Positions 24,276-25,250 are shown, numbered from the stretch's first letter. The stretch is 64,000 nt of DNA from a virus (IMGVR_UViG_2724679073_000003); one strand, 5' to 3'. The notes: a model not told the origin generated them from the sequence alone. Numbers and translations are program-made.

Positions 24276-25250
24276 ATGAACATCCTGATCATTGGGCGAA
24301 AATTTGCAGCCATCAGTGATGTGAAAACATATACGGAAATGTGGTCTTATAACCTGGCCTGCGCCTTTAGTGAGGCAGGGGTAACATTGCAATACCATCG
24401 TCCATATTCCCCTGGCGTCGAAAGCCCCGAGGATTATGTTGAAGCTGTGTTGACTGCTGCGACAGCATGTTCTGCGAAGGCCATTTTGGCACCAGGATTG
24501 AGGTATTTTACTACGGTACCCAGGGAAATAGGCATGCAACTGTGTCGCCGATTCTCTGGATGGGTAGCCCAGGTATATGACGGTTCTATGCTGGATTCGG
24601 CACCAGTCGATATTACTTTTACTGTCCGCGATGATACCTGGCGGTACCTGGATAATCCCGGTCGGTTAGAACGTCATAATCGCTTTAACAAACATGTTGG
24701 ATGGGCAGCGAATCAGGAGCTGTTCCATCTGGAAACCAAAACGGACGATGTTCTGCGTATTTTTGTAGACCACGCTGCATTTGATGTTAGTGGTTTTGAT
24801 CACTCCTTAAGTATCCTTATGAACCTTCAGCGTCTGACCGTTCCGTATGAGGCCAGAACGTTGACTGATGACGGATTGGTTACCATTGATCCGGGGAATA
24901 TTTCGGTAACTCCATACAGGCGGACGCCGGTGCCAGCAACCGAATTTGCAGCTGAATTGCGTAAGAGTGACGTTTTTATCGTTACGCATCCCGAAAGCCT
25001 TGGATTAACTGTACTTGAGGCGGCAATGTGCGGGGCGTTGGTATTAACGCCTCCCGATTGCCTTCCGCCAGATCGCCTGGCTTTGGTGAACCATATGGTT
25101 ATCAAGTCGCGGATTGATTGGGATGAGGTTATTGCTCGCGTTGATCGCGTGAAAAATGCTGAAAAGGTCCAGTGTCACACCTGGTCGGCAATTGCGGAAA
25201 AGATGCTTGAGACGTTTATCACGCAGAAACCGTCGTGCGGTAACGGATAA
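24276..25250 (+). CDS. GT-B fold glycosyltransferase-like protein (dbn position)
   Basis: C-terminal HPESLGLTVLEAAMCGALVL resembles GT4-type E-x7-E donor-binding motif. Confidence 0.5.
   Translation: MNILIIGRKFAAISDVKTYTEMWSYNLACAFSEAGVTLQYHRPYSPGVESPEDYVEAVLTAATACSAKAILAPGLRYFTTVPREIGMQLCRRFSGWVAQVYDGSMLDSAPVDITFTVRDDTWRYLDNPGRLERHNRFNKHVGWAANQELFHLETKTDDVLRIFVDHAAFDVSGFDHSLSILMNLQRLTVPYEARTLTDDGLVTIDPGNISVTPYRRTPVPATEFAAELRKSDVFIVTHPESLGLTVLEAAMCGALVLTPPDCLPPDRLALVNHMVIKSRIDWDEVIARVDRVKNAEKVQCHTWSAIAEKMLETFITQKPSCGNG

What the first reader, a model, noticed from the sequence alone, without database searches (positions are those of the whole stretch)
24276..25250. GT-B-type glycosyltransferase-like gene translationally coupled to the Ban helicase gene
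The C-terminal HPESLGLTVLEAAMCGALVL resembles the donor-binding signature of retaining GT4 enzymes. A sugar transferase co-expressed with the replicative helicase may act on DNA or a replisome protein.
Basis: inference. Interest (0 to 1): 0.4.

Follow-up and report, generated by a model that had tools for sequence, protein, structure and literature searches.

The report
Phage P1 dbn glycosyltransferase gene
This is the already-annotated phage P1 gene dbn, a sugar-transferring enzyme that sits just after the helicase gene but whose consistent partners in other viruses are three more sugar-transferase genes, which P1 also carries 6 kb away.

Summary
The window is a P1-like phage (99.5% identical to P1 here). 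The ORF at 24276-25250 is P1 dbn ('downstream of ban'). GenBank has called it a 'possible glycosyltransferase' since the P1 genome record, and RefSeq calls it 'glycosyltransferase family 4 protein'.

- The quoted motif is present and contains an E-x7-E pair, E248/E256, that is 99-100% conserved across the family.
- An AlphaFold model (pLDDT 87) is a two-Rossmann GT-B fold whose best PDB matches are GT4 enzymes.
- The gene abuts ban: either a TAATG overlap, or a 23-nt gap with a GAGGA ribosome-binding site.

The proposed link to DNA or the replisome is not supported. In 26 non-P1 lineages, a DnaB-type helicase is the neighbour in one. In 11 lineages the neighbours are homologs of P1 PmgO, PmgP (DUF115, sialyltransferase-like) or PmgQ (GT8-like), or a fourth GT-A-like family. 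Fusion proteins join these domains.

P1 itself carries pmgO, pmgP and pmgQ at 31185-33743, in the late operon on the far side of the baseplate genes.

Dbn is therefore most likely one enzyme of a dispersed, dispensable phage glycan-building set. Its acceptor is unknown; a virion protein is favoured. The gene is known, and the interest is modest.

The parts
22882..24252 (+). ban, the DnaB-type replicative helicase; upstream gene of the same C1-controlled operon
   Evidence: Pfam DnaB_C E 1e-107 and DnaB N-terminal domain E 3e-35. P1 annotation: Ban, with promoters P1ban/P2ban under operator Op72.
24240..24254 (+). AGAGGA (24240-24245) followed by ATG 24252, which overlaps the ban TAA as TAATG; this is the start annotated in P1
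   Evidence: Sequence; P1 record; identical in 143/147 P1-like loci, TGATG in 4.
24264..24278 (+). GAGGA (24264-24268), a 7-nt spacer, then ATG 24276; the more likely start of dbn
   Evidence: Sequence; 13 of 17 homologs start at the equivalent Met.
24276..25250 (+). dbn (called glt in P7): a GT-B-fold, GT4-like glycosyltransferase of 324 aa (332 aa from ATG 24252)
   Evidence: 99.5% DNA identity to P1 dbn; phrog_2518 over its full length, E 1e-239; AF2 model pLDDT 87; Foldseek matches to GT4 enzymes.
24768..24800 (+). Codons D173-H174 ... D183: family-invariant residues at the end of strand 1 and the start of helix 1 of the C-terminal Rossmann domain, where canonical GT4 enzymes carry the Arg/Lys pair that binds the donor phosphates
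   Evidence: Conservation 100%, 99% and 95% in 129 sequences; secondary structure; hhalign to a small GT4 profile, probability 78%, E 2e-5.
24987..25046 (+). HPESLGLTVLEAAMCGALVL, which contains the E-x7-E motif (E248 at 24993-24995, E256 at 25017-25019)
25271..25297 (.). 11-bp GC-rich hairpin between the convergent genes dbn and gene 5; probably a bidirectional terminator
   Evidence: RNA fold -17.6 kcal/mol, z-score -3.5. The consensus terminator scan did not report it, probably because its A-T pairs extend the stem into the T tract.
25297..30048 (-). Baseplate/tail gene block (P1 genes 5, 6, 24, 7, 25, 26) that separates dbn from pmgO/P/Q
   Evidence: ORFs; P1 annotation.
31185..31847 (+). 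pmgO: DUF115/MptE-like, GT42 sialyltransferase-like protein; its family recurs next to Dbn homologs
   Evidence: tblastn from neighbours of Dbn homologs, E 1e-38 to 1e-56; phrog_4603 'alpha-2,3-sialyltransferase', E 5e-74; profile hit to Cst-II, E 7e-4, sharing the GPS and GxD motifs; fused to a Dbn domain in P0090.
31745..32371 (+). pmgP: a second DUF115/MptE-like protein; its family recurs next to Dbn homologs
   Evidence: tblastn E 2e-55 to 8e-82; phrog_2111; Pfam MptE-like E 3e-4.
32353..33045 (+). ppp: lambda-type Ser/Thr phosphatase inserted between pmgP and pmgQ; seen here only in P1-likes, and its membership of the module is doubtful
   Evidence: Pfam Metallophos E 9e-16; P1 annotation.
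33042..33743 (+). pmgQ: GT8-like GT-A protein with a DxD motif (YLDLDT); the most frequent direct neighbour of Dbn homologs
   Evidence: tblastn E 1e-26 to 7e-75; phrog_1962 'glycosyltransferase'; profile hits to Skp1 alpha-galactosyltransferase (E 3e-5) and a GT8 enzyme; adjacency counts.

Best explanation
The ORF is dbn of a P1-like phage.

What it is. Dbn is a soluble, divergent GT-B (GT4-like) glycosyltransferase. It is transcribed with ban from the C1-repressed ban promoter.

What it belongs to. Functionally it belongs with three other phage enzymes rather than with the helicase: PmgO and PmgP (DUF115, sialyltransferase-like) and PmgQ (GT8-like). In some other phages these genes form one contiguous cluster. 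In P1 they are split by the baseplate gene block.

Inferred mechanism. During lytic growth Dbn binds a host nucleotide-sugar in its C-terminal Rossmann domain, through the E248-x7-E256 motif and the family-specific D173-H174/D183 residues. It transfers one sugar onto a glycan that the set of enzymes builds on a phage-made acceptor. That acceptor is most probably a virion (tail, baseplate or head) protein. The modification is accessory and not needed for plaque formation.

What is shown and what is inferred:
- Shown: gene identity, fold, motif conservation, gene-neighbourhood and fusion links, dispensability.
- Inferred: catalytic activity, donor, acceptor, biological role.
For: Identity. 99.5% DNA identity to P1 dbn; records call it 'possible glycosyltransferase' or 'glycosyltransferase family 4 protein'.

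Fold and motifs.
- AF2 model pLDDT 87.
- PDB matches are GT4 enzymes, E 1e-8, probability 1.0.
- E-x7-E is invariant.

Module link.
- Contiguous clusters occur in L005 (PmgO-like | PmgP-like | GT-A-like | Dbn-like | PmgQ-like, just upstream of terminase) and L004.
- 11 of 26 non-P1 lineages have a PmgO/P/Q/GTA193-family partner in the held flank; 8 are directly adjacent.
- Fusion proteins: P0090 (PmgO-like + Dbn), P0147 (Dbn + GT-A-like) and L115 (PmgQ-like + PmgO-like).
- P1 has all three named partners at 31185-33743.

Partners look like glycosyltransferases. PmgO/P resemble Cst-II and Maf; PmgQ resembles GT8 enzymes. Sugar-tailoring genes (FkbM and TylF methyltransferases, PIG-L deacetylase, cytidylyltransferase) sit in related clusters.

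Hint of a virion acceptor.
- In L101 the cluster lies between the tail sheath and tail tube genes.
- In L186 it lies among putative head/tail genes (by eye).
- In L163 it lies beside a tailspike.
- In P1 the genes flank the baseplate block, and pmgO/P/Q lie downstream of a late promoter.
- Precedent: glycosylated mycobacteriophage capsids. Giant viruses, whose glycan machinery is known (paper listed), carry Dbn relatives.

Virus enrichment.

Dispensable. dbn, pmgO, pmgP and pmgQ are all non-essential by CRISPRi.
Against: - To my knowledge no glycan has been reported on P1 virions.
- No enzymatic evidence exists for any member of the family.
- The Pfam score is just below the gathering threshold, and there is no NCBIfam hit.
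- The canonical GT4 Arg/Lys pair is not conserved, so the donor chemistry may be unusual or the protein may not be a conventional transferase.
- dbn sits in the C1-controlled ban operon whereas pmgO/P/Q lie downstream of a late promoter, so their timing may differ.
- 15 of 26 lineages showed no recognised partner in the often short flanks.
- Some clusters lie in replication modules rather than structural ones (L102, L143, L152, L190).
- The P7 record has an in-frame stop early in the gene.
Confidence: 0.45

Rival explanations
1. Modification of a host envelope glycan. Dbn and PmgO/P/Q alter a lipid-linked host glycan such as the LPS core (the P1 receptor) or enterobacterial common antigen. The effect would be to mask receptors on infected cells or debris, or to exclude superinfecting phages.
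For: - The closest solved folds include LPS and glycolipid GT4 enzymes such as WaaB and PimA.
- PmgQ-like proteins are GT8-like, the family of LPS outer-core glucosyltransferases.
- Rare cellular homologs sit beside what look by eye like ABC-transporter genes (not confirmed by a profile search) and other GT4 genes in Oceanobacter (L226), next to glmS in Brucella (L224), and beside an MptE-like gene in L224 (Pfam E 2e-6).
- In L210 the gene lies near a prophage end, like a moron.
Against: - By annotation the genes are C1-repressed or late in P1. That leaves little time for new LPS to reach the surface and gives no obvious expression in lysogens.
- No flippase, Gtr-type or membrane component was found with them.
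- Insertion between the sheath and tube genes in L101 fits virion modification better.
Confidence: 0.2
2. DNA glycosylation. Dbn, alone or with PmgO/P/Q, adds sugar to a modified base in replicating phage DNA as an anti-restriction hypermodification.
For: - dbn follows the replicative helicase and lies about 4 kb downstream of dmt, whose product carries a C5-cytosine methyltransferase-like domain.
- An unrelated lineage (L190/L140) also has the order DnaB-family helicase, then Dbn-like gene, then ThyX.
- Clusters in L102, L143 and L152 lie near what look by eye like UvsX- and gp32-type genes, together with a Pfam-confirmed cytidylyltransferase.
- Phage GT-A and GT-B enzymes that glycosylate 5hmC, sometimes next to helicases and methyltransferases, are documented.
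Against: - No TET/5mYOX, dCMP or dUMP hydroxymethylase, or ThyA homolog is annotated in the inspected P1 regions or the 90 kb of RCS47 inspected, nor in L004 or L005.
- T4 alpha- and beta-GT are absent from the top 50 structural matches.
- Helicase adjacency occurs in 1 of 26 non-P1 lineages.
- From general knowledge, P1 DNA is cut by ordinary restriction enzymes and relies on Dar proteins and methylation for protection.
Confidence: 0.12
3. Not a working transferase. Dbn is a decayed or repurposed GT-B protein, for example a nucleotide-sugar binder or hydrolase that perturbs host sugar pools, or a non-catalytic partner.
For: - The canonical Arg/Lys pair and the N-terminal glycine-rich loop are missing.
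- The Pfam score is below threshold.
- The gene is dispensable.
- The P7 copy carries a premature stop.
Against: - Residues where a GT-B active site would lie, judged from sequence and secondary-structure position, are strictly conserved: D173, H174, D183, H246, E248, E256, G261 and W151, across 129 sequences down to about 25% identity. That argues for a maintained catalytic site.
- Persistent clustering and fusion with other transferase-like domains.
Confidence: 0.1
4. Glycosylation of a replisome protein, such as Ban or host DnaC/DnaG partners, to regulate replication.
For: Only the ban-dbn juxtaposition and probable co-translation, plus the second helicase-adjacent lineage.
Against: The arrangement is not conserved. 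Homologs occur in phages with no DnaB gene in the held flanks, and in giant viruses. I know of no precedent.
Confidence: 0.03

Closest known systems
Phage P1 Dbn / P7 Glt (GenBank AAQ14048, AAQ07543; PHROG 2518)
   Same: The same gene: 99.5% DNA identity, the same position between ban and gene 5, and a full-length PHROG match.
   Different: Only a few substitutions, for example L where P1 has M at residue 46. No function has ever been shown for it.
CAZy GT4 retaining glycosyltransferases (Pfam PF00534; e.g. WaaG/WaaB, PimA, MshA, GlgM)
   Same: Predicted GT-B fold, an E-x7-E motif in the C-terminal domain, and a C-terminal helix after the C-terminal domain.
   Different: - Only 10-14% identity.
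- The Pfam score is below threshold and covers only the second half of the domain.
- The Arg/Lys phosphate-binding pair is replaced by invariant D-H ... D.
- The protein is shorter (324 aa) and lacks the N-terminal glycine-rich loop.
- A profile of the family finds only 377 cluster representatives among 1.84 billion, so this is a separate clade.
Virus-encoded virion glycosylation systems (mycobacteriophage Che8-type capsid/tail glycosylation; giant-virus fibril glycans)
   Same: Several phage-encoded glycosyltransferases, dispensable, that use host nucleotide-sugars. Some clusters lie inside structural modules (L101, L186). Dbn relatives occur in giant viruses, with a Tupanvirus glycosyltransferase matching at TM 0.75-0.79.
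   Different: No glycan has been shown on P1 or any phage carrying this family. The enzymes belong to different sequence families. In P1 the genes are dispersed and sit under different promoters.
Phage DNA glycosyltransferases (T4 alpha/beta-GT; 5hmC-dependent GT gene clusters of Pyle et al.)
   Same: GT-B fold and a location near replication genes. Such enzymes are sometimes found next to helicases and methyltransferases.
   Different: No base-hydroxylating enzyme is annotated in the P1-like regions inspected. T4 enzymes are not among the top structural matches. The recurrent partners are other glycosyltransferase-like proteins rather than TET or ThyA homologs.

Membership tests
CAZy GT4 / Pfam Glycos_transf_1 (PF00534) | GT-B architecture: two Rossmann-like domains | tested here: met
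   The AF2 model (pLDDT 87.2) has alternating strand/helix domains at residues 10-148 and 168-283, followed by helix 311-324. Foldseek gives probability 1.0 to many GT-B enzymes.
CAZy GT4 / Pfam Glycos_transf_1 (PF00534) | E-x7-E motif in the C-terminal domain | tested here: met
   E248 and E256 are present in the window protein and 99% and 100% conserved in 129 homologs.
CAZy GT4 / Pfam Glycos_transf_1 (PF00534) | Score at or above Pfam's gathering threshold | tested here: not met
   25.0 bits against a 26.4-bit cut-off, matching only profile positions 83-169 of 172. The near-identical cluster representative P0001 does carry a precomputed PF00534 hit.
CAZy GT4 / Pfam Glycos_transf_1 (PF00534) | Conserved Arg/Lys pair in the strand 1-helix 1 loop of the C-terminal domain, which binds the donor diphosphate | tested here: not met
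   The family has invariant D173-H174 and D183 in this loop, with no conserved basic residue. hhalign to a five-sequence GT4 profile (probability 78%) places WaaG's R-K opposite V179-S180. The alignment is only moderately reliable.
CAZy GT4 / Pfam Glycos_transf_1 (PF00534) | Retaining transfer from a nucleotide-sugar donor | not testable with these tools
   Needs an enzyme assay.
PHROG 2518 (Dbn family) | Full-length match to the family profile | tested here: met
   E 1.3e-239, residues 1-332 against profile positions 1-332.
Phage DNA glycosylation pathways (T4-type or 5hmC/5hmU/5hoC-dependent) | A phage enzyme that makes a hydroxylated base (dCMP/dUMP hydroxymethylase, ThyA homolog, or TET/5mYOX) | tested here: not met
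   None is annotated in the inspected P1 regions or in the 90 kb of RCS47 inspected, and none appears in the gene tables of L004 or L005. This is checked by annotation only, not by an exhaustive profile scan. ThyX is present in L190 only.
Phage DNA glycosylation pathways (T4-type or 5hmC/5hmU/5hoC-dependent) | Structural similarity to T4 alpha- or beta-glucosyltransferase | tested here: not met
   Neither is among the 50 best PDB or BFVD matches.
Phage virion glycosylation systems | Glycosyltransferase genes placed within, or co-expressed with, structural genes | tested here: inconclusive
   Met in L101 (between sheath and tube genes), in L186 (putative head/tail genes by eye), in L005 (before terminase) and in L163 (beside a tailspike). 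In P1 the genes flank the baseplate block and pmgO/P/Q lie downstream of a late promoter. Other lineages place the cluster in replication regions instead.
Phage virion glycosylation systems | A glycan covalently attached to a virion protein | not testable with these tools
   Needs mass spectrometry or glycan staining of purified virions.

The most novel reading that the evidence does not exclude
Coliphage P1 encodes a previously unrecognised, dispersed four-enzyme glycosylation pathway: Dbn, PmgO, PmgP and PmgQ. It would place a short glycan on a virion protein, or less likely on DNA or the cell envelope. The same module is shared by lambdoid phages, Mu-like phages, marine phages and, for the Dbn-family member, giant viruses. 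If so, virion glycosylation would not be confined to actinobacteriophages, and it could be tested in one of the most tractable phage systems.
Probability: 0.3. Interest if true: 0.6.

Novelty: already known. Interest (0 to 1): 0.3.

Why it matters
The gene and its glycosyltransferase annotation are already public, so the finding as written adds little.

What may be useful is the regrouping. Four P1 genes now filed separately (dbn as 'unknown/possible GT', pmgO, pmgP and pmgQ as 'putative morphogenetic') look like one glycan-building set that recurs across unrelated viruses.

If it is active, it would give a simple genetic system for studying what phage-made glycans do. P1 in E. coli K-12 is easy to work with, and all four genes are dispensable. 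It would also matter for P1-based transduction and delivery vectors, where virion surface chemistry affects host range and immune recognition.

Tried and rejected
- The search for related loci with alignment A1 returned only P1-like contigs.
I replaced them with a hand-made degenerate DNA pattern for F..TH.ES.G....E.A..G.
- The PDB sequence search with the Dbn profile gave KtrA/RCK potassium-channel domains for N-domain positions 27-88 (E 9e-5, inflated by a tandem repeat). I rejected this as generic Rossmann similarity.
- hhalign in global mode against single WaaG failed, and local single-sequence alignments had low probability. A five-sequence GT4 profile gave a usable alignment.
- My first helicase screen, a Ban-only HMM at E 1e-5, missed the L190 helicase. 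I redid it with two queries and Pfam.
- A guess that the L190 ORF at 73-456 is a CMP-Kdo synthetase fragment was not confirmed by Pfam.
- NCBIfam and PADLOC gave nothing useful.
- The 2004 P1 genome paper is not in the library.
- The consensus terminator scan missed the hairpin after dbn, so I folded it directly.
- I could not inspect model coordinates, so clustering of the conserved residues in the interdomain cleft rests on secondary-structure position only.

Full report
**What the region is.** DNA from 24200-25300 is 99.9% identical to Escherichia phage JL22 and 99.5% identical to phage P1. All 18 matching phage records are P1-like. In the P1 record the ORF is dbn, noted 'function unknown, possible glycosyltransferase'. 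P7 calls it glt, 'putative glycosyltransferase'. RefSeq RCS47 calls it 'glycosyltransferase family 4 protein'. The upstream gene is ban, a DnaB-type helicase (Pfam DnaB_C E 1e-107). The downstream, convergent gene is baseplate gene 5. The finding is therefore a known gene with a known tentative annotation.

**Checking the observation.**
- The ORF runs from ATG 24252 or ATG 24276 to TAA 25250, and the quoted peptide is residues 246-265.
- ATG 24252 overlaps the ban stop as TAATG and follows AGAGGA. ATG 24276 follows GAGGA at a 7-nt spacing.
- The junction is identical in 143 of 147 P1-like loci.
- An 11-bp hairpin (-17.6 kcal/mol, z -3.5) lies between dbn and gene 5.
- No promoter-like or terminator-like site separates ban from dbn, although the P1 record predicts two weak promoters inside ban.
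- In an hfq-mutant transcriptome, ban and dbn were both over-induced at 20 min.

Co-transcription is thus likely and translational coupling plausible. Neither was tested directly.

**Is it a glycosyltransferase fold?**
- Pfam Glycos_transf_1 scores 25.0 bits, under the 26.4-bit cut-off, and matches only the second half of the domain.
- PHROG 2518, of unknown function, matches end to end.
- An AlphaFold2 model built on 18 homologs has pLDDT 87 and pTM 0.84. It shows two strand/helix domains plus a C-terminal helix.
- Foldseek finds GT4 enzymes first: GlgM, sucrose-phosphate synthase, MshA, PimA, PimB', BshA and WaaB, at E 1e-8 to 1e-6 and TM 0.5-0.64.
- Among viral models the best match is a Tupanvirus glycosyltransferase, at TM 0.75-0.79 and E 5e-17.
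- T4 alpha- and beta-glucosyltransferases are not in either top-50 list.

**The family.** A profile search of 1.84 billion cluster representatives finds only 377 relatives at E <= 1e-3. This is a small clade set apart from mainstream GT4. In 129 full-length members the following residues are conserved:
- 95-100%: D173, H174, D183, H246, E248, G251, E256, G261 and W151.
- 83-94%: D110, R84, R224, W290 and W311.

The E-x7-E pair is kept. The Arg/Lys pair that canonical GT4 enzymes carry in the first strand-helix loop of the C-terminal domain is not. An hhalign comparison with a small GT4 profile (probability 78%, E 2e-5) puts WaaG's R-K opposite V179-S180, with the invariant D-H just before. The donor, or the way it is bound, may therefore differ from textbook GT4 enzymes. 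I could not inspect model coordinates to go further.

**Gene neighbourhoods.** This changes the interpretation.
- In a lambdoid contig (L005) the Dbn homolog lies in a run of five overlapping genes just upstream of terminase.
- In a GC-rich contig (L004) it lies in a run of four.
- tblastn shows that the flanking genes of both contigs have homologs in this very window: pmgO (31185-31847), pmgP (31745-32371) and pmgQ (33042-33743), at 26-66% identity and E from 9e-11 to 8e-82, mostly 1e-26 or better.
- In P1 these genes are 'putative morphogenetic' genes downstream of the late promoter LPpmgL, on the other side of the baseplate block.

PmgO and PmgP are DUF115/MptE-like. PHROGs and RefSeq name PmgO 'alpha-2,3-sialyltransferase'. 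A joint profile hits Cst-II (GT42) at E 7e-4 and Maf, and shares the GPS and GxD motifs. PmgQ has a DxD motif, and its profile hits GT8-type enzymes.

**Counting contexts.** I scanned IMG/VR and the species-genome collection with a degenerate pattern for the conserved motif and searched the loci with my own HMMs.
- Among P1-like loci that hold dbn (177), 163 also hold ban.
- The 39 non-P1 loci fall into 26 lineages at 60% identity.
- 11 lineages have a PmgO/P/Q-type or GTA193-type partner in the held flank, 8 of them directly adjacent. One lineage has a DnaB-family helicase adjacent.
- Fusion proteins join the domains: P0090 is PmgO-like plus Dbn, P0147 is Dbn plus the L005-type GT-A, and the L115 ORF is PmgQ-like plus PmgO-like. 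Others carry a methyltransferase or hydrolase-like domain.
- Related clusters contain FkbM and TylF methyltransferases, a PIG-L deacetylase and a cytidylyltransferase-isomerase fusion, all typical sugar-tailoring or sugar-activating enzymes.
The family is mainly viral.

**The counter-example.** L190 and its relative L140 are low-GC phage contigs. They have a DnaB-family helicase (Pfam E 7e-17), a distant Dbn-like gene overlapping its end, and then ThyX. Together with P1, that makes two independent helicase-adjacent lineages out of 27. This is not clearly more than chance, but I cannot dismiss it.

**What the acceptor might be.**
- For a virion protein: in L101 the cluster is inserted between the tail sheath and tail tube genes, downstream of the capsid gene. 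In L186 it sits among putative head/tail genes (by eye), and in L163 next to a tailspike. In P1 the genes flank the baseplate block. Glycosylated capsids and tails are known in mycobacteriophages. Giant viruses, which glycosylate their particles, carry Dbn relatives.
- For an envelope glycan: the folds resemble LPS and glycolipid enzymes, and the few cellular homologs sit in what look like polysaccharide loci.
- For DNA: the gene lies near replication genes in some lineages, and there is a documented class of phage 5hmC glycosyltransferases.
- Against DNA: no base-hydroxylating enzyme is annotated in the inspected P1 regions or in the 90 kb of RCS47 inspected. From general knowledge, P1 DNA behaves as ordinary methylated DNA.

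All four P1 genes are dispensable for plaque formation, as expected for an accessory modification.

**Verdict.**
- The fold assignment is correct.
- The proposed link to DNA or the replisome is weak.
- The gene is already known and annotated, so novelty and interest are low.
- The useful result is that dbn, pmgO, pmgP and pmgQ probably form one glycan-building set, with unknown donor and acceptor. This is easy to test in P1.

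Noticed in passing
window 20839-21085: ARAGORN finds three adjacent tRNA genes here (Asn, Tyr, Thr), plus tRNA-Met(CAT) at 22526-22601. 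The P1 record annotates only Asn and Thr at this spot, so this phage has an extra tRNA-Tyr (20919-21005).
   Followed up: no
L002 (P7, AF503408) about 2643-2645, equivalent to window 24342-24344: The P7 record reads ATG TGA GCT where P1 and this window read ATG TGG TCT. This in-frame stop at Trp31 explains why P7 'glt' is annotated with a later start (287 aa). It is either a sequencing error or a natural knock-out of the gene.
   Followed up: partly
L190 1398-4428 (and L140): An unrelated low-GC phage lineage has a DnaB-family helicase, a distant Dbn-like gene overlapping its stop, and then ThyX. This is a second, independent helicase-Dbn juxtaposition, and it is unexplained.
   Followed up: partly
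L101 4664-10238: A cluster of four glycosyltransferase-like genes plus an FkbM methyltransferase is inserted between the tail sheath and tail tube genes of a GC-rich myophage-like contig. Those two genes normally lie next to each other.
   Followed up: partly
L115 8673-9938; proteins P0090, P0147, P0098, P0110, P0126: Several domain fusions occur in this family: PmgQ-like+PmgO-like, PmgO-like+Dbn, Dbn+GT-A-like, tandem Dbn+Dbn, Dbn+SAM methyltransferase and Dbn+hydrolase-like. About ten 520-630 aa proteins carry Dbn plus an uncharacterised C-terminal domain of roughly 190 aa.
   Followed up: partly
L099, L116, L185: Dbn-family genes occur in AT-rich contigs that look like giant viruses: one contig carries a GVMAG label, and two (L099, L185) have a neighbouring ORF that looks by eye like RNA polymerase subunit Rpb10. 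The family therefore spans phages and viruses of eukaryotes.
   Followed up: no
window 30443-31021 and 35380-35886: P1 PmgM has a borderline VRR-NUC nuclease domain hit (21.2 bits against a 23.8-bit cut-off; RefSeq RCS47 names its homolog VRR-NUC). Pap matches the phosphatase domain of polynucleotide kinase-phosphatase (E 6e-12). Several 'putative morphogenetic' or 'acid phosphatase' labels in this operon therefore look outdated.
   Followed up: no
window 25271-25297: A strong hairpin between the convergent genes dbn and gene 5, probably a bidirectional terminator, was missed by the consensus terminator scan, probably because its A-T pairs absorb the T tract.
   Followed up: yes
L224 450-3057, L226 2657-5036: In Brucella pseudogrignonensis and Oceanobacter antarcticus chromosomes, a Dbn-family gene is flanked by a DUF115-like gene and a hydrolase-like gene. 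In Oceanobacter these lie beside other GT4 genes and apparent ABC-transporter genes (by eye). They may be cellular polysaccharide loci that use the same enzyme pair.
   Followed up: partly
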